NCBI GenBank assembly: GCA_001004905.1
Contig: LCRY01000003.1
Location: forward strand, 24,830-88,829
Source: Parcubacteria group bacterium GW2011_GWA1_56_13
Lineage (GTDB): Bacteria; Patescibacteriota; Minisyncoccia; Phycocordibacterales; Phycocordibacteraceae
Direction of reading: 5' to 3'
Length of the DNA stretch: 64,000 nt
Position numbers and translations under genes: made by a program. This document shows positions 1,627 to 64,000 of the stretch, piece after piece; the stretch's first letter is position 1, and every line of letters starts with the position of its first letter. Below the pieces are notes generated by a model. The model ran no database searches and was not told the DNA's origin. It saw only the letters and a list, made by a program, of their open reading frames with translations.

Positions 1627-3585
1627 CTACATCCCGATAAGAACCGGGATGACCATCGGCGCTTTATTGGTGCGGGCGAAGAGGAACCCCGCGATGACAT
1701 CGGTCAGGTTGTTCTTCACATAATCGAGGTCGATCGGGTTCATATTGCGCGTGGAATCCTCGATGGTCTTCTTGATGAGGACGCGCGCCTCATTGAGAAG
1801 ATTCTGCGACTCGCGCAGATAGATGAAACCGCGACTGATGATGTCGGGCGACTTGCGCAGTTTCCCGGTCTTGAGGGCGACGCTCGCGATAATGACGAAC
1901 ATACCGTCCTTGGCGAGCGACTGGCGGTCGCGAATGACGACTTCCTGTATGTCGCCGATCGTAAAGCCGTCAACGACCATCGGCGCGGAAGGCACTTTTT
2001 GCTTGTGCACGTTCATCCGCTCGCCGTTCTCAATGTCGATGACCGTGCCGTTGTCCGGCACGATGATGTTCTCCTTCGGAAAGCCCGACTGTTCGACGGC
2101 CTTCGCATGGCAGCGCAGCATTGAGTGGTAGCCGTACGCGGGCATGAAGAACGTAGCCCCGACTTGCTTGTTGATCCAGACCAGCTCGCCTGTGTTGCCA
2201 TGGCCGGTCGAATGGACGTCGCTTGAGCGGTAGTGGATGAGCGTCACACCGTGACGGTAAAGATTGTCCTTCAGTTTCTGCACGGCTATCTCATTACCGG
2301 GGATGACGGAAGAGGACAGCACGATGGTGTCACGCTCGTTCAGGGTAATGTTCTTATGCTGTTCGGTGGCGATGCGCATCAGCGCCGCGAATTCTTCGCC
2401 CTGCGCGCCGGTGGAGAGAATGACGATCTTGTCCGGCGGATAATTGCCGATGTCCTGCGCGGGGATGATCGTCTCCTTCTTTATCTTGAGAAGGCCGGTT
2501 TTTTCCGCGATCTCGAGGTTGTTCCGGATGGAACGACCTTCGGTGACGATTTTTTTCCCGAGTTTTTCCGCCGCTTCCATGATGTGGATCATGCGTTCGA
2601 ACTGTGACGCGAATGTCCCAATGATGAGGCGACCGGAGACCGTCTTAATGATCTCCTCGAGCGTCTGGATGACGCGCTTCTCGGGAATGGAGAAACCGTC
2701 CTTTTCCGCGTTCGTCGAGTCGGCGATGAAGAAAATGTTTTTATCTTTGCCGATGGTGCCCCACGTCTTTACTTCATGCTCGGCGGGTACGCCATCATCA
2801 TGGTCGAGCTTCAGGTCGCCGGTGATGACGACATTGCCCTGCGGAGTCTCGACCGAAACACCCATCGAGTCGGGGATAGAGTGCGTGACCGGGAAGAATT
2901 TGACCCGAGTGCTCCCGATGGTCACGGATTGGCCGACTTCGACGGTGTGTATCTCGGATTTAGGCACGTCCGGATATTCTTCTTGCCGTCGCTGGATCAT
3001 GATACCAGTGAGATTCTGCGTATAGAGCGGAGGCGTTCCGAATCGCGGCAGTGTGAAGGGAATGCCGCCGATGTGGTCGAGATGTCCGTGAGTGATGATG
3101 ACGCCTTTCACGCGGTCGGCGTTCTTCTCCAGATATTTCGTGTTGGGGAGGATGTAATCGACCCCCGGGGAGGTATCCTCGGAAACGAATTGGAAGCCGG
3201 CGTCAAAGACGAGAATGTCGCCGGTCGCGCCCACTTCGACTGCGGTCATGTTACGGCCGACCTCTTCGACGCCTCCGAGCGGGATGATGCGGACCGTCGT
3301 TGGTCCTGCCGGTTCCGGAAAATAATCGGCGGCGCGGGGAACTCGGTTCGACTGGCTCATGGGACGGCGCAGGATGCGCTGAATGCGGCGCGACGCGCCG
3401 CCGGGGCGGGATGTTCCCCTTCCTCCTCGGTTCGAATGGCGGCCGCCTGGTTGCGAGCGGCCTCGTTCAGGCAGACCGCGCTCGAAACGCCGCGGCCCCC
3501 CCGGCCGCGGTGCACGCGATGGCGCCGGACGCGTGTATCCCGGAGTCGGTGCTGGTGCTGGTGCTGGTGCTGGTGCTGGATTCAT
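1627..3585 (-). CDS. rnj: Ribonuclease J (metallo-beta-lactamase / beta-CASP) with an Arg/Gly/Pro-rich N-terminal extension.
   Basis: HGHLDHIGG metal-binding motif; beta-CASP and RNase J C-terminal regions; 652 aa. The N-terminal ~100 aa are low-complexity (PAPAPAPAPAPTPG..RGGRG..). Confidence 0.85.
   Translation of the reverse strand: MNPAPAPAPAPAPTPGYTRPAPSRAPRPGGPRRFERGLPERGRSQPGGRHSNRGGRGTSRPGGASRRIQRILRRPMSQSNRVPRAADYFPEPAGPTTVRIIPLGGVEEVGRNMTAVEVGATGDILVFDAGFQFVSEDTSPGVDYILPNTKYLEKNADRVKGVIITHGHLDHIGGIPFTLPRFGTPPLYTQNLTGIMIQRRQEEYPDVPKSEIHTVEVGQSVTIGSTRVKFFPVTHSIPDSMGVSVETPQGNVVITGDLKLDHDDGVPAEHEVKTWGTIGKDKNIFFIADSTNAEKDGFSIPEKRVIQTLEEIIKTVSGRLIIGTFASQFERMIHIMEAAEKLGKKIVTEGRSIRNNLEIAEKTGLLKIKKETIIPAQDIGNYPPDKIVILSTGAQGEEFAALMRIATEQHKNITLNERDTIVLSSSVIPGNEIAVQKLKDNLYRHGVTLIHYRSSDVHSTGHGNTGELVWINKQVGATFFMPAYGYHSMLRCHAKAVEQSGFPKENIIVPDNGTVIDIENGERMNVHKQKVPSAPMVVDGFTIGDIQEVVIRDRQSLAKDGMFVIIASVALKTGKLRKSPDIISRGFIYLRESQNLLNEARVLIKKTIEDSTRNMNPIDLDYVKNNLTDVIAGFLFARTNKAPMVIPVLIGM
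3548..3580. repeat. Hexanucleotide repeat (GGTGCT)x5.5, encoding (Pro-Ala)n at the rnj 5' end.
   Basis: ggtgctggtgctggtgctggtgctggtgctgg is seen directly. On the minus strand it reads CCA GCA repeats. Confidence 0.8.
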
Positions 3586-11291: not shown

Positions 11292-11849
11292 ATGAACCTC
11301 ACAAAATTCATCCCCGTCTCGCTCATGGTCGCCGCATTTGCGGCCGCGTGGGTGCTTATCGGGCAGTATTACAACCTCGCGCTTTGGGTCCCGTTCATCA
11401 GCTGGCCGCTGTATTTCGTTTACGATCCCGACGCAACGAAGCTGAAGCGCATCCCGAAAGAGATCGTCGGCTTGCTCGGCGGCATAGTGTTCGGTTACGT
11501 GACGCTCTGGCTCGCTCCGCAGATAGGCAACGTCTCGGGCGCCACGTGGGCCCTGCCGCTCACGGTGTTCCTCGTCGCGTTCACCATAGTGATGCTCGAA
11601 CTCACGAACCTCTTCGAGCTCGCGCCCGCGTACTTCTTCTCCTACGCCGGATACTTCGCGTACGTATTTGGCGGATTCGCCGGCGCGTATTCGCTCGGTA
11701 CGGCGTTCCAGGCCATGCTTCCGTACGGAGCGCTCATCCTGGTCGGCCTGGCGATCGGCCTCGTAACGGCATACCTGCGCCGGATCATATTGCAGGCGGA
11801 AGGACTCTACGGCTTCGCGCAGAGGACCGTGTTCGACAAGGAGATCTAG
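11292..11849 (+). CDS. Hypothetical polytopic membrane protein.
   Basis: 185 aa, 4-5 TM helices. No family recognised. Confidence 0.45.
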   Translation: MNLTKFIPVSLMVAAFAAAWVLIGQYYNLALWVPFISWPLYFVYDPDATKLKRIPKEIVGLLGGIVFGYVTLWLAPQIGNVSGATWALPLTVFLVAFTIVMLELTNLFELAPAYFFSYAGYFAYVFGGFAGAYSLGTAFQAMLPYGALILVGLAIGLVTAYLRRIILQAEGLYGFAQRTVFDKEI

Positions 11850-58319: not shown

Positions 58320-58931
58320 TCAGAATCGTTGCGAATAAAACTTCCGTTTCAGATACGGTCTCACGTAGCGGTCGAGACCCCAATGACCGGCGACGCGCCG
58401 GGCACTCATGAGGGCGAGCGCGAGTACCATGAGCGTAGGATTGACGCTTACCGTGCCGGCGAGCAGGAAGTTGAGATTCATGAAGAAGCCGAAGAAGGCG
58501 GCGGTGCCGACAAAGAGCCCGGCAAGAAGCCCGAGGCCGACAAGCACTTCGCCGACGGCGATGGCGTTCGACCAAGAAACGAGGTGGGGAAGTACGGCAC
58601 CCTTCAAAAACGCGGCGTACCACATTTGGACATCAGGGTGGCATGCCGCCCCCGGCTGACAGAATTCCGCCGTCTTGCGGAGCGCCCCCTGGATAAAGCC
58701 GTTCATCGCGGCCCCGGCGCCGCTGCCGAACCATGCCGGATTGGTCACTTTTTCCCATCCGGCGATGAGCCACTCGTAGCCGACATAGAGGCGCACGAGG
58801 AACCAGAACGGAGCGCTTTTCGCGCTGGCGAGGAAAAAATGAGAGAACCGCGACTGCTCTAATGTGTAGTTGGGCATGCTGTTATAGTAGGGCAGATGGA
58901 AAAAAGCGAAAGCGGCGCCTGGGGAATACAT
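58320..58931 (-). CDS. DoxX-family membrane protein.
   Basis: Four TM helices with DoxX-like W/G-rich segments (YVGYEWLIAGWEK). Confidence 0.55.
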   Translation of the reverse strand: MYSPGAAFAFFHLPYYNSMPNYTLEQSRFSHFFLASAKSAPFWFLVRLYVGYEWLIAGWEKVTNPAWFGSGAGAAMNGFIQGALRKTAEFCQPGAACHPDVQMWYAAFLKGAVLPHLVSWSNAIAVGEVLVGLGLLAGLFVGTAAFFGFFMNLNFLLAGTVSVNPTLMVLALALMSARRVAGHWGLDRYVRPYLKRKFYSQRF

Positions 58932-58961
58932 ACCCTCGAGTCATGTATCGACCGCACCACG

Positions 58962-60431
58962 ATGTATCGGCTGGTGCTGTATTATGTGCTCGCATTATTC
59001 GCTTCGGCAGTGATTTTCAGCACCGTCGGCGCCTTGCCGTACGCGCCAGCAGAGCTTCTGTGGTCGGCGGGAGTATTCCTGGCAGCGTCATGGCTCGCGA
59101 ATATGTGTTTCGCGCGGATATGCAGGGCGGTGACCAATGCGGAATCCGTCTATATCACGGCGCTCATTCTGGCGCTCATCGTGACGCCGACGACTTTCTC
59201 CGATATAACCGGTTCCTCCGTGCTTGCCGTCATCGCGGTGTTGGCGATGGCGTCCAAATATGTTCTCGCGATAGGGAAGAAGCACCTGTTCAACCCTGCG
59301 GCAGCTGCGGTGGTGATATCGGGATTTGTTTTCGGCCTACCGGCGAGCTGGTGGGCCGCAGAGCACCCCGTCCTCCTTCCATTCATTATCGTGGGCGGCC
59401 TCCTCATTGTGCGCAAATTGCGGACGTACGACCTCGTGCTTGCTTTCGCCACCGCTGCTCTCGCAGTTACCGCGCTTCTGTCATCCGATCTTCTTGCTGA
59501 AGTCCGGGCGTTATTCCTCGAGTCGGCATTTTTTTATTTCGGGTTCGTTATGCTTACGGAACCGCTGACCATGCCGCCGACGCGCGCGCTTCGCATAGGG
59601 TACGGCGCGCTGGTCGGCGCGTTTTTCGTCCCGGTCGCGCACATCGGTTCGTTCTATTTTTCTCCCGAACTGGCGCTTGTCACGGGCAACTTGTTTTCGT
59701 ATATCGTGAGTCCGAAAGGTCGGTACATGCTTTCCTTCATCGGACGTCGTCCGCTTGCGAGCGGCATACACGAGTATCTTTTCCGAAGCGACCGGCCTTT
59801 GCGTTTCCGGGCGGGACAATACCTTGAATGGACGATCCGCACGCTGCAATCCGACGCGCGCGGGAACCGCCGCTTCTTCACCATCGCGTCGGCACCCGAG
59901 GACGAGACGCTTGCGCTCGGCGTGCGTTTTTATGAAAGGCCGAGTGCGTTCAAACGAGCACTGGCGAAACTCCTCGCAGGAGCGGTGGTTTCAACTTCTT
60001 CGCCTGCAGGCGATTTTACGATGCCCAAGGACACGCAGCGGAAACTCGCCCTCATCGCAGGCGGTATCGGCGTTACGCCTTTCGCCAGTATGGCGAGGCA
60101 CTGCATCGCCGCGAGCGAACGGCGGGATGCAGTATTGCTGTACGCCAGCCGGACCTCGGCGGAGGTCGCCTATCAGGACGTTTTCGCGCGCGCTGCAGGG
60201 CTCGGCTGGCGCGCGGTCTACGCGGTTTCAGAAGAGGTGCCGGCTTCTTCTGGCGTGCGTACAGGGACCATAGATGCGGCGTTCATCAAAAGGGAAGTTG
60301 CCGATTACCATGAGCGGATTTTTTATATTTCAGGCCCGCCCGGGATGGTTGATGGCATCAAGCGTATTCTCCGTGGTCTCGGCATATCGCGTTTCTCCAT
60401 AAAAACCGACTTCTTCCCGGGCCTTGTCTAG
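58962..60431 (+). CDS. Fusion of a polytopic membrane domain with a ferredoxin-NADP-reductase-type FAD/NAD(P)-binding domain.
   Basis: C-terminal RFFTIAS (the RxYS-type FAD motif) and GGIGVTPF (NAD motif). N-terminal ~230 aa with 6-7 TM helices. Start could instead be at 58896. Confidence 0.65.
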   Translation: MYRLVLYYVLALFASAVIFSTVGALPYAPAELLWSAGVFLAASWLANMCFARICRAVTNAESVYITALILALIVTPTTFSDITGSSVLAVIAVLAMASKYVLAIGKKHLFNPAAAAVVISGFVFGLPASWWAAEHPVLLPFIIVGGLLIVRKLRTYDLVLAFATAALAVTALLSSDLLAEVRALFLESAFFYFGFVMLTEPLTMPPTRALRIGYGALVGAFFVPVAHIGSFYFSPELALVTGNLFSYIVSPKGRYMLSFIGRRPLASGIHEYLFRSDRPLRFRAGQYLEWTIRTLQSDARGNRRFFTIASAPEDETLALGVRFYERPSAFKRALAKLLAGAVVSTSSPAGDFTMPKDTQRKLALIAGGIGVTPFASMARHCIAASERRDAVLLYASRTSAEVAYQDVFARAAGLGWRAVYAVSEEVPASSGVRTGTIDAAFIKREVADYHERIFYISGPPGMVDGIKRILRGLGISRFSIKTDFFPGLV

Positions 60432-60499: not shown

Positions 60500-60646
60500 G
60501 CGTTCGGAGAAAATGCTTACACGAGGACGTGCAGTCATTTTTCCTCGCTCGCTGGCGTAAGCGTTGATTGCACGCTTTCGTTCAGCTCGCTCGGAGAACA
60601 TGCGTGTGCGAAGACGCATCCGCATATTTCCTCGCTCGCTGGCGTA
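60500..60646 (+). repeat. Tandem ~86-87-bp duplication of the tRNA upstream region plus the first ~10 nt of the tRNA.
   Basis: tcggagaaaatgc...ttcctcgctcgctggcgtaag (60504-60561) is repeated as tcggagaacatgc...ttcctcgctcgctggcgtagc (60591-60646). The second copy continues into the tRNA. Confidence 0.65.
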
Positions 60647-60711
60647 GCTCAGGTAGTTAGAGCATGGCATTCATAAAGCCAAGGTCGAAGGTGCAAGTCC
60701 TTCCGCCAGCA
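60638..60711 (+). tRNA. tRNA-Met-like (anticodon CAT) with an atypical T-loop; possibly degenerate.
   Basis: Acceptor GCTGGCG/CGCCAGC pairs perfectly; D stem GCTC/GAGC; anticodon loop TTCATAA with a 31.39 A.A mismatch; T stem GAAGG/CCTTC with loop TGCAAGT (G at position 54). No CCA. Confidence 0.55.
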
Positions 60712-60796
60712 CTTGAATTCAATGGGAAACTTACAAACTTGAACGTTTGTGTGGATGAACAATGGTTATAGTAATATCCTGTCATAAACTGTGTAG

Positions 60797-61483
60797 ATGC
60801 CCATACGCCGTGAACTAGATCAGGATTTTTTTAAGAAATGGTCGCCGCAAATGGCGTACGTGTTAGGATTTTTTGCGGCTGACGACTCCATGCTAAAGAA
60901 TCGTCGGGGTAGCCATTACATTGAATTCACGGTTACCGATAAAAGTGTCTTAGAACAGATACGGGAAGCAATCGGTTCGACGAATCGTATAGCAGAGCGG
61001 AAGCGGATTAGTAAACAAAAAGCAGTGTATCGCTTACAAATTGGCAGCAAAGAATGGTTTAAGGACTTGTCGTGTCTCGGTTTTATGCAAAACAAAAGTA
61101 AAAGACTTGCGTTGCCTGTTATACCCGCAAAATATTTTGGAGATTTTGTACGCGGATATTTCGACGGAGATGGGTGTGTGTATTTCAATCGCCTGAAATA
61201 TGCGGACCGCAAAAATCCTCGCTGGATACTAATGACACTTTTCACTAGCGGATGCCAATTATTTCTCAATTCACTTTGGACCGAACTCAAGATTCGAGGC
61301 ATCCACGGCGGTTCATTAAAGCGCAAAACACGTGGCTTTGAGCTTTGTTTCAGCCATAAAGACAGCGTTGCGCTCTACCGCGTCATGTATCATACTGGAA
61401 AAGCGCCTGAATTATGGCTGCCTCGTAAGCGGAGAAAGATCGAGGAAGCGATTCGGCAGTTAAATCTTGCGGTCGTGGTGTAG
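60797..61483 (+). CDS. LAGLIDADG homing endonuclease (double-motif, single-chain type).
   Basis: Two LAGLIDADG-type motifs: LGFFAADDS and RGYFDGDGCVY. 228 aa, AT-richer than the host. The last 15 nt overlap tRNA-Asp. Confidence 0.85.
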   Translation: MPIRRELDQDFFKKWSPQMAYVLGFFAADDSMLKNRRGSHYIEFTVTDKSVLEQIREAIGSTNRIAERKRISKQKAVYRLQIGSKEWFKDLSCLGFMQNKSKRLALPVIPAKYFGDFVRGYFDGDGCVYFNRLKYADRKNPRWILMTLFTSGCQLFLNSLWTELKIRGIHGGSLKRKTRGFELCFSHKDSVALYRVMYHTGKAPELWLPRKRRKIEEAIRQLNLAVVV

Positions 61484-61543
61484 CCTGGTTAACACGTCTC
61501 CCTGTCACGGAGAAGATCGTGGGTTCAAATCCCATCGACCGCG
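61469..61543 (+). tRNA. tRNA-Asp (anticodon GTC).
   Basis: Acceptor GCGGTCG/CGACCGC; D stem GTGT/ACAC; anticodon stem TCTCC/GGAGA with loop CTGTCAC; T arm GTGGG-TTCAAAT-CCCAT; discriminator G. No CCA. Confidence 0.75.
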
Positions 61544-61686
61544 CAATCAGCGAAATCCGGGGAACGGCCTATTTTGTGTTATGAGCGGGTTTCGACTCCT
61601 GACCAAGCCCGTCCCTCGCGCAAATAACCGTAGATTGGTTCAAAAATGGCTGTCCATAGGGCAGTCATTTTTGTTATAGTTGACGT

Positions 61687-62268
61687 ATGAAAGGAGGACC
61701 CGAGGGACCAAAAAATAATACTGACAGGGTGCCGGAGCCAAGATTTCCTCAAAGAGCTGAAGAGATAGGGCGAATGTTTGCCGTAGATCAAGACATGCGG
61801 GGGAAAAGTCTTCAGGATGATTCTGTTTGGGATGAGGAAGTCGATAGCAAAAATACCGAGGCAATGAAGCAGATTGTCGCAGAGATTGGATGGCCGACTG
61901 TATCTAAAGTTGGCAAGGAGGCATCTCACGCCGCTTGGCTCTTGGTTCAGCATGCAGATCATGATCCAAAGTTTCAACAAGAGTGCCTCGCTCTGATGAA
62001 GCAGGAATCAGAGAGTGAAGTAAGCCCTGTCGATATTGCTTATCTCGAAGATCGAATACGAGTCAATACAGGTCAGGGTCAGGTATACGGAACGCAATTT
62101 CATGAGACGAGAGATGGGGAAGGCAACATTGTCCAATATGGACCCCGACCAATAGAAGATCCAGAACATATCGACGAAAGGCGGGCGAAAGTAGGCCTTC
62201 AACCACATGCCGAGTATTTAAGATCTCTCACAGAAAAGTATTATCCTCATCTGTTAAAGAAGGAATAA
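61687..62268 (+). CDS. Hypothetical protein in an AT-richer segment.
   Basis: 193 aa, acidic. No family recognised with confidence. Confidence 0.45.
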   Translation: MKGGPEGPKNNTDRVPEPRFPQRAEEIGRMFAVDQDMRGKSLQDDSVWDEEVDSKNTEAMKQIVAEIGWPTVSKVGKEASHAAWLLVQHADHDPKFQQECLALMKQESESEVSPVDIAYLEDRIRVNTGQGQVYGTQFHETRDGEGNIVQYGPRPIEDPEHIDERRAKVGLQPHAEYLRSLTEKYYPHLLKKE

Positions 62269-62344
62269 GAATCACATCTTTCTGACTCTCCCGTATCTTA
62301 GTTCCAACAGCGTCCACAAGATTGCGCAAAACAAGAAAGTCGGA

Positions 62345-62557
62345 TCAACCCCGATCCCTTAGGAGGCCACGCAGACCGTAGAGCAGGATCGAAAACCAGA
62401 TCAAAAACGAGCCAAGACCTACGACAAAGAACGTGGCTGCTATTTTGAAATATATTTCTGAAGGGGGGTGAGGACCCCAGATAAAGGAGAGGACCAAGCT
62501 TGCGCACCCTGCGAGACAGATGAAGAATATGCGTACAGTTAGCCGCTCCAACATACT
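62345..62557 (-). CDS. Possible small two-TM membrane protein.
   Basis: Hydrophobic helices (IFFICLAGCASLVLSFIW; FFVVGLGSFLIWFSILLYGL). Start uncertain. Confidence 0.3.
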   Translation of the reverse strand, partial: SMLERLTVRIFFICLAGCASLVLSFIWGPHPPSEIYFKIAATFFVVGLGSFLIWFSILLYGLRGLLRDRG

Positions 62558-62638
62558 ACCGGTAACTCCCGTTCCCCTTGAGAGGTTGCTTGTCCTGCGT
62601 ACAAGCAGTCCCGATCTCGTCAACAAGAGAGTGTGCAA

Positions 62639-63010
62639 TCAAGAACGGCCGTACCGGTCCTCGAGGCGTTTGACGTCGTTCTCATCGAAGTTGCCGAATG
62701 CTATTTCAAGGCACGCAAGCCCGTCAGGGCCGCCGGTAATGCGATGCGCACAGCGCCGCGGGGTAAAGAAGGCATCGCCTGCCTTCGCGTGGGTGTCCTT
62801 TTCTCCGATGCGAATGACGCCCGAACCCTGCAAAACGCGCCAGAATTCGTCGCGGTGGTCGTGGGTCTGTAAACTGAAGGATTCCCCGGCACGGACCGTG
62901 ACTATTTTTACAGTCGTTTTCTCATTCAGCGTGAAGCGTTCAAAATTGCCCCACGGGCGCTCCTCCTTCTCATAATGCGCGAGGCCTTCCATATGGCGAT
63001 AAGTATACAT
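62639..63010 (-). CDS. Cupin-domain protein (mannose-6-phosphate isomerase type II C-terminal-like).
   Basis: E-RPWG-F motif (EERPWGNFERF); cupin metal/His motif (SLQTHDHRDEFWRVLQGSG); ...ENDVKRLEDRYGR C-terminal tail typical of ManC C-terminal cupins. Confidence 0.6.
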   Translation of the reverse strand: MYTYRHMEGLAHYEKEERPWGNFERFTLNEKTTVKIVTVRAGESFSLQTHDHRDEFWRVLQGSGVIRIGEKDTHAKAGDAFFTPRRCAHRITGGPDGLACLEIAFGNFDENDVKRLEDRYGRS

Positions 63011-63118
63011 ATTTTTATTGAAAGTAGCGGAGTTATCCGCTACTATGCGCGAGTGCGATAGGTCCGAGCACATTCAGCAGTTGAATGTTCGAGCGAACGA
63101 TCGCGGACAATCACGTTA

Positions 63119-63194
63119 GCCGAGATAGCTCAGTTGGTAGAGCACGTCCATGGTAAGGACGAGGTCGTCGGTTCAATCCCGACTCTCGGCTCCA
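63119..63194 (+). tRNA. tRNA-Thr (anticodon GGT).
   Basis: GCCGAGATAGCTCAGTTGGTAGAGCACGTCCATGGTAAGGACGAGGTCGTCGGTTCAATCCCGACTCTCGGCTCCA. All four stems pair canonically; encoded CCA. Confidence 0.85.
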
Positions 63195-64000
63195 GTTTCA
63201 AAGTCAGGTCAGTTTCGCCGTCAGAAAATTTCGCGGCGCGGAGCGCCGCATAGGGGGAATGCGCATTTCCGCGCGCTTCGCGCGCGTGAGGGAGGTTCAG
63301 AAATACAAAATCCGAAAATTTTTGGAGGGAGGATTCAAGACGCGAAGCGTCCGAAATCCAATTCCTGACAGGTTCAACCCACGCGGCAGGGGCTCGTTCG
63401 AGACGGACGATTTGTTCCTCAATCGTCTTACGCTCGCTCATTAGCGAACGACGGCGGGACAAGTACTCTTCGCGCTCCAAATCCTCGGCGACATACAAGT
63501 CCGTTAGCCGAGCGTGCGTGCGGGAGATTGCCGCAGCCTTCTCCCGCAGATCTTGAACGGCCTCTGCCGCCGTTTTAGAGGCGTCAGTAGCATCTCTATC
63601 TATCAGTGCAGACAGTGGCGATACCCATTCTTTAGGCATAGCGTACTCGCCGAGAAGCGCCGAAAGTTGCGAATCCAATAATTCGCTTCGTATCGGCGCT
63701 TCGGTACATTTAACCGCTTTAGATTTCCGCGTACAGCGGTAATAGGTATAGAGGTGAATATTGCCGTTCTTTTGGTGTTTCTCTTTCTTCTCGGCCGTGA
63801 TGCTCATACCGCAGGAGCAACGGAGTAAGCCGCAATACGGGCTCGGATCATCCTTGATGTCCGGCACGCGACCGCGACTGTGCAGAACGATATTCGCCTT
63901 ATCAAAAAATTCCTTTGAAACGATAAGTTCGTGTTTCCCCTCGTACACTTCGCCCGCGTAGCGGAAGTGGCCGTAGTAGAACGGGTTTTGGAGATAGAAC
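63130..64000 (-). CDS. Large serine recombinase (partial; recombinase and zinc-ribbon domains plus coiled-coil; catalytic N-terminus lies beyond the window end).
   Basis: Zinc beta-ribbon YCGLLRCSCG...YYRCTRK and recombinase-domain segment HELIVSKEFFDKANIVL. The open frame runs to the window edge. The C-terminal tail is read antisense through tRNA-Thr. Confidence 0.7.
   Translation of the reverse strand, partial: FYLQNPFYYGHFRYAGEVYEGKHELIVSKEFFDKANIVLHSRGRVPDIKDDPSPYCGLLRCSCGMSITAEKKEKHQKNGNIHLYTYYRCTRKSKAVKCTEAPIRSELLDSQLSALLGEYAMPKEWVSPLSALIDRDATDASKTAAEAVQDLREKAAAISRTHARLTDLYVAEDLEREEYLSRRRSLMSERKTIEEQIVRLERAPAAWVEPVRNWISDASRLESSLQKFSDFVFLNLPHAREARGNAHSPYAALRAAKFSDGETDLTLKLEPRVGIEPTTSSLPWTCSTN

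What the first reader, a model, noticed from the sequence alone, without database searches (positions are those of the whole stretch)
61687..64000. Large serine recombinase abutting tRNA-Thr at the window edge, beside an AT-richer segment
A serine-recombinase recombinase/zinc-ribbon region (63130-64000, minus strand, N-terminus off-window) ends inside tRNA-Thr(GGT) (63119-63194). A recombinase gene reading into the 3' side of a tRNA is the typical attL arrangement of an integrated element, whose body would extend beyond the window to the right. To the left lies an AT-richer stretch (61687-63073) with a hypothetical 193-aa protein, a small membrane protein and a ManC-type cupin. These could be remnants of earlier insertions at the adjacent tRNA-Asp/tRNA-Thr hotspot.
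Basis: partly seen in the sequence, partly recalled or inferred. Interest (0 to 1): 0.55.

Follow-up and report, generated by a model that had tools for sequence, protein, structure and literature searches.

The report
Serine-integrase defence island at tRNA-Thr
The window ends inside a small mobile island that a large serine recombinase inserted at the 3' end of a tRNA-Thr gene in a Patescibacteria genome. The island belongs to a widespread family, not found in the literature searched, that carries anti-phage or toxin genes and keeps an unexplained inverted spare copy of its own attachment site.

Summary
tRNA-Thr(GGT) lies at 63119-63194. The last 289 codons of a large serine recombinase (LSR) run antisense from the window edge, and the stop codon falls inside the tRNA.

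A 100%-identical metagenome contig (L001) extends 2.56 kb past the window. It shows a full 518-aa LSR with its catalytic domain, then an AT-rich two-gene cargo: an RmrA-like HTH/M78 peptidase and a DUF4411 PIN-like protein. It ends in an inverted copy of the DNA next to the tRNA.

About 60 related loci from Patescibacteria show this is a family of 3.6-11 kb integrative islands. They sit at tRNA 3' ends (Thr, Glu, Leu, Arg; more distant relatives at other tRNAs) and mostly carry defence cargo. The inferred crossover is at tRNA positions 72-73. The far junction is a conserved 35-nt motif joined to native tRNA-downstream DNA.

The element is a small island, not a prophage or ICE. The cupin is a syntenic host gene, not an insertion remnant.

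Three features are unusual. An internal inverted attP-like site is conserved across the family. The LSR ORF has no stop of its own and crosses the crossover site. The window's LSR allele is altered at its C-terminus.

Verdict: new variant of a known kind; moderate interest.

The parts
63119..63194 (+). tRNA-Thr(GGT), intact. Its 3' end is the B-type half of attL ('T').
   Evidence: ARAGORN; Rfam tRNA, 68 bits.
63190..63195 (+). Core shared by attL and the family's attP-like sites (CT-CCAG). The inferred crossover dinucleotide is CT at 63190-63191, i.e. tRNA positions 72-73.
   Evidence: Repeat boundaries in relatives stop here. The dinucleotide covaries with the target tRNA: CT for Thr, CA for Leu/Glu/Arg. 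The site is a quasi-palindrome, TTTRAT-N5-CT-N5-ATYAAA. The exact cut position is inferred, not shown.
63190..63335 (.). Arm R': element-derived right half of attL. It encodes (on the minus strand) the LSR C-terminal tail and is repeated inverted about 3.2 kb away, off-window (L001 1-66).
   Evidence: BLAST and repeat finder: L001 1-66 vs 3251-3316, 98%. Arms of 97-167 nt, 88-100% complementary within a genome, in relatives.
63130..64000 (-). Large serine recombinase, C-terminal 289 codons: end of the Recombinase domain, zinc ribbon, coiled coil and tail. The N-terminus is off-window. The ORF has no stop of its own and ends in antisense tRNA.
   Evidence: Full 518-aa gene in L001 1911-3467. 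The same read-through is seen in 27 homologous loci.
63335..63336 (.). Position of a 36-nt in-frame deletion in the window relative to L001. It removes 13 residues (DEIAKSEDYPSKK) and leaves one (E), a net loss of 12.
   Evidence: Unique among 28 homologues.
62639..63073 (-). ManC-type cupin (144 aa). A host gene, syntenic with tRNA-Thr(GGT); not part of the island.
   Evidence: Pfam. Adjacent to tRNA-Thr in L002, L003, L004, L018/19, L030 and L044.
61687..62638 (.). Lineage-specific low-GC insert: DUF6624 (61687-62268, +) and a 97-aa membrane ORF (62345-62638, -). Origin unknown; no att remnants.

Best explanation
The window's right edge is the left junction (attL) of a small integrative island. 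A large serine recombinase (LSR) inserted it at the 3' end of tRNA-Thr(GGT).

Inferred mechanism. A circular form carries an attP made of a conserved 35-nt left half 'M' (AAATAGGTTCTAGCG..TTTAATAGGGA) and a right half 'R', which is the antisense of the LSR's own 3' coding end. LSR dimers bind attP and the tRNA end (attB = tRNA 3' half + native downstream DNA). They exchange strands at the dinucleotide at tRNA positions 72-73. The products are attL (tRNA|R, as seen at window 63190) and attR (M|native DNA). The tRNA's CCA is then supplied by the element.

What this island carries. It holds the LSR and an AT-rich RosmerTA-like pair (an HTH-M78 peptidase plus a DUF4411 PIN-like protein). That pair most likely acts as a defence or addiction module.

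Family peculiarities. The island keeps an internal inverted copy of attP (site 's2'). In this genome the s2 arm is visible as the inverted repeat at the end of L001. The role of s2 is unresolved. The LSR ORF crosses the crossover site, so its last ~20 residues depend on whether the element is integrated.

Shown versus inferred. Shown: gene content, junction anatomy, family-wide conservation, empty sites and complete elements in relatives. Inferred: the exact cut position, recombinase activity, cargo function, and this genome's far end, for which no sequence is available.
For: LSR identity:
- Pfam Resolvase, Recombinase and Zn_ribbon domains on the full protein.
- Related to SPbeta SprA, E=3e-13, and to the Ccr and XisF models.

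Continuation past the window:
- L001 is 100% identical over 3,343 nt.
- It shows the LSR, an RmrA-like protein (PADLOC E=1e-19) and DUF4411.
- Cargo GC is 0.41-0.43 against 0.577 for the window.

Family:
- 16 GTDB and 44 metagenome loci, 53-91% aa identity (two remote hits at 35-37% and one at 24%), all Patescibacteria-like.
- The LSR reads into a tRNA in all 27 loci where that side is visible.

Complete elements:
- attL and attR are in direct orientation in L007, L008, L009, L038 and L072. Sizes are 3.6-11.2 kb.
- Their outer flank is native DNA: tandem tRNA-Thr(ggt)-tRNA-Thr(cgt)-prfB is seen uninterrupted in L009, L031, L042 and L066.
- The core dinucleotide of M covaries with the target tRNA.
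- GGTTC lies 4 nt further from the core in M than in the tRNA, as expected for P-type versus B-type half-sites (the rule itself is from my knowledge of Rutherford & Van Duyne 2013).

Other support:
- Tandem accretion in L042.
- Defence cargo elsewhere: OLD/GajA-like ATPase, type IIG RM (E=1e-292), defence-type reverse transcriptase, AbiEii.
Against: - The far end (attR) of this particular genome's island could not be reached. L001 ends inside the inverted repeat, and no other assembly of this population was found.
- No circular form or excised junction was found in any collection. The protein search for it was uninformative.
- No recombination directionality factor is evident, so present-day mobility is unproven.
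- The window's LSR allele is atypical. It has a 12-aa net deletion plus a C-terminal stretch converted to the s2-arm variant, and it may be impaired.
- Some relatives lack a recognisable far-end M (L032, L068).
Confidence: 0.8

Rival explanations
1. Invertible DNA switch. The LSR acts as an invertase that flips the ~3.2-kb segment (LSR + cargo) between the two ~157-nt inverted repeats. This would toggle expression of the cargo, or toggle the recombinase's C-terminus.
For: - Long, near-identical inverted repeats flank the LSR segment in more than 20 loci.
- The two sites have identical cores in inverted orientation.
- The arms exchange sequence. The window/L001 carries the s2-arm variant in both arms and L005 carries the tRNA-arm variant in both.
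Against: - In all 27 loci where the tRNA side is visible, the LSR reads into the tRNA. No flipped isomer was seen in independent assemblies.
- The direct-orientation attR with a native flank explains the insertion without any inversion.
- Contig breaks at the repeats are explained by repeat length exceeding the assembler's k-mer, and by IS110 copies.
Confidence: 0.08
2. Immobilised remnant. The island was once mobile but is now fixed and decaying in this lineage. The recombinase is a relic or has been domesticated, and the repeats are fossil att sites.
For: - The window allele has a unique 36-nt deletion and a converted C-terminal stretch.
- L042's LSR is frameshifted.
- L010, L042 and L066 hold C-terminal LSR remnants.
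- L068 has the same cargo without arm R or motif M.
- No RDF and no circular forms were found.
Against: - L001's LSR is full-length with an intact catalytic motif, and the window's deletion is in-frame.
- The family is 75-89% identical across different Patescibacteria classes and sits at several different tRNAs with matching cores. That requires recent movement.
Confidence: 0.2
3. IS-like transposon with terminal inverted repeats. The unit R...LSR...R' would be a serine-transposase element whose joined ends form a perfectly palindromic attP. It would insert between the tRNA end and an M-like sequence.
For: Minimal units consist only of the LSR between two R arms (L008, L009, L010). In L005 both arms abut tRNA-Thr 3'-end sequence.
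Against: - The core dinucleotide is non-palindromic (CT or CA), and the two flanking sites are inverted. They cannot be excised as a circle.
- Re-drawing the sites to share a dinucleotide on one strand puts the half-site motifs 4 nt out of register (my analysis).
- M travels with the element across lineages and also forms the far junction.
Confidence: 0.04
4. Edge of a prophage or a conjugative element (ICE), as the first reader suggested checking.
For: An integrase next to a tRNA is typical of both.
Against: - Complete relatives are 3.6-11 kb and contain only the LSR, small regulators and defence/TA genes.
- There are no LSR or att-motif matches in IMG/VR.
Confidence: 0.02

Closest known systems
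Large serine integrases/recombinases of temperate phages and chromosomal cassettes (SPbeta SprA/YokA, SCCmec CcrA/B/C, Anabaena XisF, phiC31/Bxb1-type)
   Same: Same three-domain architecture: Resolvase catalytic domain with the R-x-S motif, Recombinase domain, and zinc ribbon with a coiled-coil insert. Sequence-related to SprA (E=3e-13) and to the Ccr/XisF models. The att sites are quasi-palindromic with a short core. The attP-type half-site carries its outer motif 4 nt further out than the attB-type half.
   Different: - Scores are far below every NCBIfam equivalog cutoff, so this is a separate clade.
- The target is the extreme 3' end of tRNA genes.
- The recombinase ORF runs across attP.
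- The element keeps a second, inverted attP.
- No RDF was recognised.
tRNA-targeting genomic islands and tycheposons (Hackl et al., bioRxiv 10.1101/2020.12.28.424599, read)
   Same: Small cargo-carrying integrative elements at tRNA genes. They can stack in tandem, and they carry defence or adaptive genes. A minority of tycheposons (27 of 937) use a large serine recombinase.
   Different: Most such islands use tyrosine integrases and are flanked by direct repeats of the tRNA 3' part. Here only ~5 nt are shared. The hosts are Patescibacteria. There is no replication module, and there is an internal inverted attP.
Inverted-repeat recombination systems (Hin/Gin invertible segments; yeast 2-micron plasmid FRT repeats). 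From my own knowledge.
   Same: Two identical recombination sites in inverted orientation, embedded in longer inverted repeats, with the recombinase gene between or beside them. An excised circle of this island would carry two inverted attP sites separating two unique segments, as in the 2-micron plasmid.
   Different: No second orientation was observed in 27 loci. The recombinase is a large serine integrase rather than a small invertase or Flp. The element has no replication genes, so copy-number amplification by flipping would serve no evident purpose.
Integration-dependent gene truncation in mycobacteriophages (attP inside a coding sequence; Broussard et al. 2013). From my own knowledge, not checked here.
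   Same: The crossover site lies inside an ORF, so the protein's C-terminus differs between the integrated and excised states.
   Different: There it is a tyrosine-integrase system and the affected gene is the repressor. Here it is the serine recombinase itself, and no functional consequence has been shown.
RosmerTA (RmrA antitoxin with HTH + M78 peptidase, variable toxin RmrT)
   Same: The 374-aa cargo protein matches 14 PADLOC RmrA models over nearly full length (best E=1e-19). It overlaps a small downstream gene in the same operon.
   Different: The partner, DUF4411 (PIN-like), matches no PADLOC model. No experimental link exists. NCBIfam's nearest model is the spr1629 repressor/antitoxin family, well below its cutoff.

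Membership tests
Large serine recombinase (LSR / serine integrase) | N-terminal resolvase catalytic domain with a serine nucleophile | tested here: met
   Off-window, in the 100%-identical contig L001. PF00239 E=1.2e-19, residues 5-149. Motif LYARKST.
Large serine recombinase (LSR / serine integrase) | Recombinase domain (PF07508) followed by a zinc-ribbon domain (PF13408) with a coiled-coil insert | tested here: met
   Both pass Pfam gathering scores on the window fragment and on the full protein. Cysteines are at CGLLRCSCG...YYRC, followed by a long helical stretch.
Large serine recombinase (LSR / serine integrase) | Short quasi-palindromic att sites with a 2-bp crossover; attP and attB dissimilar outside the core | tested here: inconclusive
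   The anatomy fits: TTTRAT-N5-CT-N5-ATYAAA, a ~5-nt shared core, and a core that covaries with the target tRNA. The cut position and recombinase binding are inferred only.
Large serine recombinase (LSR / serine integrase) | Catalyses attP x attB recombination | not testable with these tools
   Needs an in-vitro or in-vivo recombination assay.
Integrative genomic island at a tRNA gene | Integrase gene adjacent to the tRNA, foreign composition, cargo genes | tested here: met
   (cargo GC 0.41-0.43 vs 0.577).
Integrative genomic island at a tRNA gene | Two junctions in direct orientation flanking the insert; native sequence outside; empty sites in relatives | tested here: inconclusive
   Met in relatives L007, L008, L009, L038 and L072, with empty tRNA-Thr sites in L009, L031, L042 and L066. 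For this genome only attL is available.
Site-specific DNA inversion switch | Both orientations of the segment occur in populations or relatives | tested here: not met
   0 of 27 loci have the LSR reading away from the tRNA. Read-level data were not available.
Prophage / ICE | Virion, packaging or conjugation genes within the element | tested here: not met
   None in L001 or in complete relatives. No IMG/VR matches.
RosmerTA defence/TA system | RmrA (HTH + M78 peptidase) encoded next to a toxin gene | tested here: inconclusive
   RmrA-like match, E=1e-19. The neighbouring DUF4411 has no PADLOC model. Function untested.

The most novel reading that the evidence does not exclude
The conserved internal inverted attP (s2) and the recombinase ORF that spans the crossover site may be functional parts of a new way of running a serine-integrase element. 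One version: s2 is a live landing pad inside the integrated island. It would capture attB-bearing DNA or recombine with other tRNA genes. L005 looks like such an event, with breakpoints exactly at the core. A second version: the integration-dependent swap of the LSR's C-terminal ~20 residues (antisense-tRNA tail versus antisense-M tail) substitutes for a separate directionality factor.
Probability: 0.2. Interest if true: 0.75.

Novelty: new variant of a known kind. Interest (0 to 1): 0.45.

Why it matters
- Mobile elements of Patescibacteria (CPR) are poorly known. This family appears to be a common vehicle for defence genes in these reduced genomes. It supplies dozens of natural LSR/attP/attB sets with readable specificity, because the core covaries with the tRNA.
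- Such sets are the raw material for genome-engineering integrases.
- If the internal attP or the tail swap proves functional, it would be a compact solution to the directionality problem of serine integrases that needs no separate directionality factor.
- For annotation, these recombinase ORFs should not be trimmed or flagged as overlapping errors at tRNA genes.

Tried and rejected
- Looked for the far end of this genome's island. The cupin look-up found only L001. An exact 30-mer from the cargo side found nothing in JGI contigs. The window's source genome is not among the GTDB representatives.
- Hainich contigs with the same cargo stop about 100 nt after DUF4411. This first looked like repeat-induced breaks but turned out to be IS110 insertions.
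- Tested whether motif M and the GC-rich region beside it are a known RNA such as tmRNA, tRNA-like, RNase P, ROOL or GOLLD. There were no Rfam hits at gathering or relaxed thresholds. RNAalifold found only a 4-bp consensus.
- Considered a standard attP made of the two R arms (a palindromic attP). Rejected because the core is asymmetric and the half-site motifs fall 4 nt out of register.
- Searched proteins for full-length LSRs ending in the M-derived tail, which would mark circular or flipped forms. Only 56-117-aa fragments came back. Ordinary full-length LSRs were missed too, so the test is uninformative.
- Counted variable columns by codon position in the LSR tail: [14,10,15] and [13,12,20]. 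This gives no clear sign of protein-level selection.
- Looked for partial tRNA-Asp repeats or other att remnants around the DUF6624 segment. None were found.
- Literature searches for this element family found nothing relevant.
Full report
**1. Observation**

ARAGORN finds tRNA-Met (60638-60712), tRNA-Asp (61469-61544) and tRNA-Thr(GGT) (63119-63194), all on the + strand. Rfam confirms them.

On the minus strand, the frame window:63130-63999 is open for 289 codons. It matches Pfam Recombinase and Zn_ribbon_recom above their gathering scores. The stop codon is at 63130-63132, so the ORF runs antisense through 62 nt of the tRNA.

To the left lie a ManC-type cupin (62639-63073, -), a 97-aa membrane ORF, DUF6624 (61687-62268, +) and a LAGLIDADG_3 ORF (60797-61483, +).

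GC content is 0.45-0.46 for LAGLIDADG and DUF6624, but 0.55 for the cupin. The window mean is 0.577.

**2. What lies beyond the window**

An exact look-up of the cupin protein returned one contig, L001 (5,938 nt, an ENA assembly of a groundwater sample). It is 100% identical to window 60659-64000 except for 36 extra bases at window position 63335. It extends 2,560 nt further.

L001 encodes:
- a full 518-aa recombinase with Resolvase (E=1e-19), Recombinase and Zn-ribbon domains and the LYARKST catalytic motif;
- divergently, a 374-aa HTH/M78-peptidase protein;
- an overlapping 162-aa DUF4411 protein.

The 374-aa protein matches 14 PADLOC RmrA (RosmerTA antitoxin) models, best E=1e-19. DUF4411 matches none. 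These two genes have 0.41-0.43 GC.

Neither is met.

L001 positions 1-66 are a 98% inverted copy of L001 3251-3316, which corresponds to window ~63281-63335 plus part of the 36-nt insert. The contig ends inside this repeat.

**3. A family of elements**

The recombinase has relatives in 16 GTDB species representatives. Nearly all are Patescibacteria: Paceibacterota, Kaiserbacteria and Nomurabacteria. It also has relatives in 44 metagenome contigs. Identities are mostly 53-91%, with two remote hits at 35-37% and one at 24%.

Where the downstream side is visible, the recombinase reads into a tRNA gene:
- Thr-GGT, Thr-CGT or Thr-TGT for close relatives;
- Glu, Leu or Arg for some;
- Lys, Asn, Gln or Phe for the 53-58% relatives.

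In all 27 loci examined, the ORF has no stop before the tRNA.

The 97-167 nt next to the tRNA (arm R') recur inverted on the other side of the recombinase. They lie 1.6-3.6 kb away and are 88-100% complementary within each genome.

The outer edge of that second arm abuts a conserved motif 'M', consensus aAAaTAGGTTCtAGCg..gTt.AATAG.GA. M is followed by the same core as the tRNA end (CT-CCAG). There are 22 distinct M|R sites.

The dinucleotide at the centre is CT where the target is tRNA-Thr. It is CA where the target is tRNA-Leu, Glu or Arg, matching tRNA positions 72-73. Around it the site is a quasi-palindrome, TTTRAT-N5-CT-N5-ATYAAA.

The GGTTC block sits at -24..-20 in M and at -20..-16 in the tRNA (my reading). 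This resembles the known outward shift of the zinc-ribbon motif in attP relative to attB half-sites. That rule comes from my own knowledge (Rutherford & Van Duyne 2013).

**4. Complete elements and empty sites**

In L007, L008, L009, L038 and L072, a second copy of M lies on the same strand and in the same orientation as the tRNA junction, 3.6-11.2 kb away. It is joined at the same core to unrelated DNA.

That DNA is native:
- in L008 and L009 it is the start of prfB;
- in L007 it is a 57-nt spacer followed by tRNA-Thr(CGT);
- in L072 it leads to tRNA-Leu.

The uninterrupted arrangement tRNA-Thr(GGT)-spacer-tRNA-Thr(CGT)-prfB is seen in L009, L031, L042, L066 and L068.

These are therefore insertions with attL = tRNA|R' and attR = M|native DNA.

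The internal site (s2 = M|R, inverted) is essentially the attP that excision would rebuild. Its left 100 nt are 99-100% identical to attR's left. Its right 100 nt are 85-94% identical to attL's right.

L042 shows a simple element without s2, inserted into the attL of an older, decayed element.

Many contigs of close relatives (L002, L003, L029, L030, L039, L049, L064) stop 25-270 nt beyond M. This is consistent with a second copy of the M-flanking region elsewhere in those genomes.

By analogy, the island in this genome most likely continues beyond L001 with M, a GC-rich region, a second cargo segment and attR. This is inference only.

**5. Cargo**

Where scanned, cargo is mostly defence or toxin-antitoxin:
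- RmrA-like + DUF4411 (this genome, L003, L029, L068);
- OLD/GajA-like ATPase (L004);
- type IIG restriction-modification enzyme (E=1e-292) plus DUF3644 (L032);
- a defence-type reverse transcriptase (L008);
- AbiEii (L042);
- a PIN protein (L005);
- an XRE regulator (L072).

No virion, replication or conjugation genes were seen. Neither the recombinase nor the M motif occurs in IMG/VR.

**6. Rival readings**

An inversion switch is suggested by the inverted repeats. However, no locus shows the flipped orientation, and contig breaks are explained by repeat length and by IS110 copies.

The arms do exchange sequence. In most genomes the tRNA-side arm has GGTTCAATCC, while the s2 arm has GGTTCA-GAAATACAAA-ATCC. 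In the window/L001 both arms carry the s2 form, and in L005 both carry the tRNA form. This fits gene conversion between repeats.

A transposon with a palindromic attP is rejected. The core is asymmetric, and the motifs would be out of register.

Decay is possible for this copy. The window allele lacks 12 residues net and carries the converted stretch SSLQKFSDFVFLNLPH instead of the family's SSLQKIFGLNLSLH. Both features are unique among 28 homologues.

**7. Unresolved features**

The role of s2 is unknown. L005 has M joined to foreign DNA and, 165 nt away, 21 nt of a tRNA-Thr 3' end joined to arm R. Both breakpoints are exactly at the core. This is what a recombination of s2 with an attB-like site would leave, so s2 may be active.

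The region next to M (150-670 nt, GC-rich, conserved between distant loci) has no Rfam match and no consensus fold.

Because the ORF crosses the core, the recombinase would end in ...LILE-PRVGIEPTT...STN when integrated at tRNA-Thr. In a circle it would end in ...LILE-SLLKHARTYFAQH. The tail's length is conserved, but substitutions are not concentrated at third codon positions. Whether the swap matters cannot be decided here.

**8. The left-hand segment**

The cupin lies next to tRNA-Thr(GGT) in L002, L003, L004, L018/19, L030 and L044 (63-73% aa identity). The LAGLIDADG ORF lies next to tRNA-Asp in L002 and L006. Both are syntenic host features.

DUF6624 and the 97-aa ORF occur only in this lineage. 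They are low in GC, but no partial tRNA repeat or M/R-like sequence marks them. 'Earlier insertion' is plausible for them and unsupported for the cupin.

**9. Verdict**

It belongs to a Patescibacteria-wide family for which I found no description in the searchable literature.

In kind it is ordinary: a tRNA-targeted island with defence cargo. In architecture it is unusual: an internal inverted attP, and a recombinase ORF spanning attP. I rate it a new variant of a known kind, of moderate interest.

Noticed in passing
window 60797-61483 (+): A free-standing LAGLIDADG_3 ORF (228 aa, GC 0.45) lies between tRNA-Met and tRNA-Asp. Its stop overlaps the first 15 nt of tRNA-Asp. The same synteny occurs in L002 and L006 at 46-49% aa identity.
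   Followed up: partly
window 60501-60559 and 60588-60646: A 59-nt direct repeat (76% identity). Its second copy runs into the 5' end of tRNA-Met, so it looks like a partial duplication of the tRNA-Met upstream region.
   Followed up: no
window 63335 / L001 3227-3261: A 36-nt in-frame indel between two otherwise identical assemblies, at the inner edge of the inverted repeat. The window allele lacks DEIAKSEDYPSKK (replaced by E). This is unique among 28 homologues. It could be strain variation or an assembly effect.
   Followed up: partly
L018-L027 (about 75 nt after the DUF4411 stop); L020 1168-2256; L042 1090-2250: Two different IS110-family elements are inserted at the same point (after ...GGCAAAAAGTCAA) in Hainich groundwater populations. 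A third sits inside the GC-rich region of L042. This suggests IS110 targeting of these islands.
   Followed up: partly
L042 246-915; L005 1955-2616; L008 12696-12869; L038 470-754: The GC-rich non-coding region flanking motif M is conserved between distant loci (89% over 675 nt between L042 and L005). It has no Rfam family and no consensus fold. It could be an unknown RNA or a set of accessory sites.
   Followed up: partly
L036 ~2790-2900; L037 ~1890-2000; L032 ~11497-11600: Here the recombinase reads into a tRNA-like 3' half (T-arm + acceptor + CCA). Neither ARAGORN nor Rfam calls it as a tRNA or tmRNA. It may be a truncated or interrupted tRNA, or a divergent tmRNA.
   Followed up: partly
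L068 2-1100: The same RmrA-like/DUF4411 cargo (96-98% aa identity) lies 300 nt upstream of tRNA-Thr(CGT)-prfB, with no R arm or M motif. This may be a deleted far end. The rest of that contig could not be fetched.
   Followed up: partly
L010 11340-11586 (-): A group I intron (Rfam 72 bits), about 7 kb downstream of the recombinase in a Paceibacterota contig.
   Followed up: no
window 58896-60431 (+): A 511-aa membrane protein combining an RnfD/NqrB-like region with an FNR-type NAD-binding domain, just upstream of the tRNA cluster.
   Followed up: no
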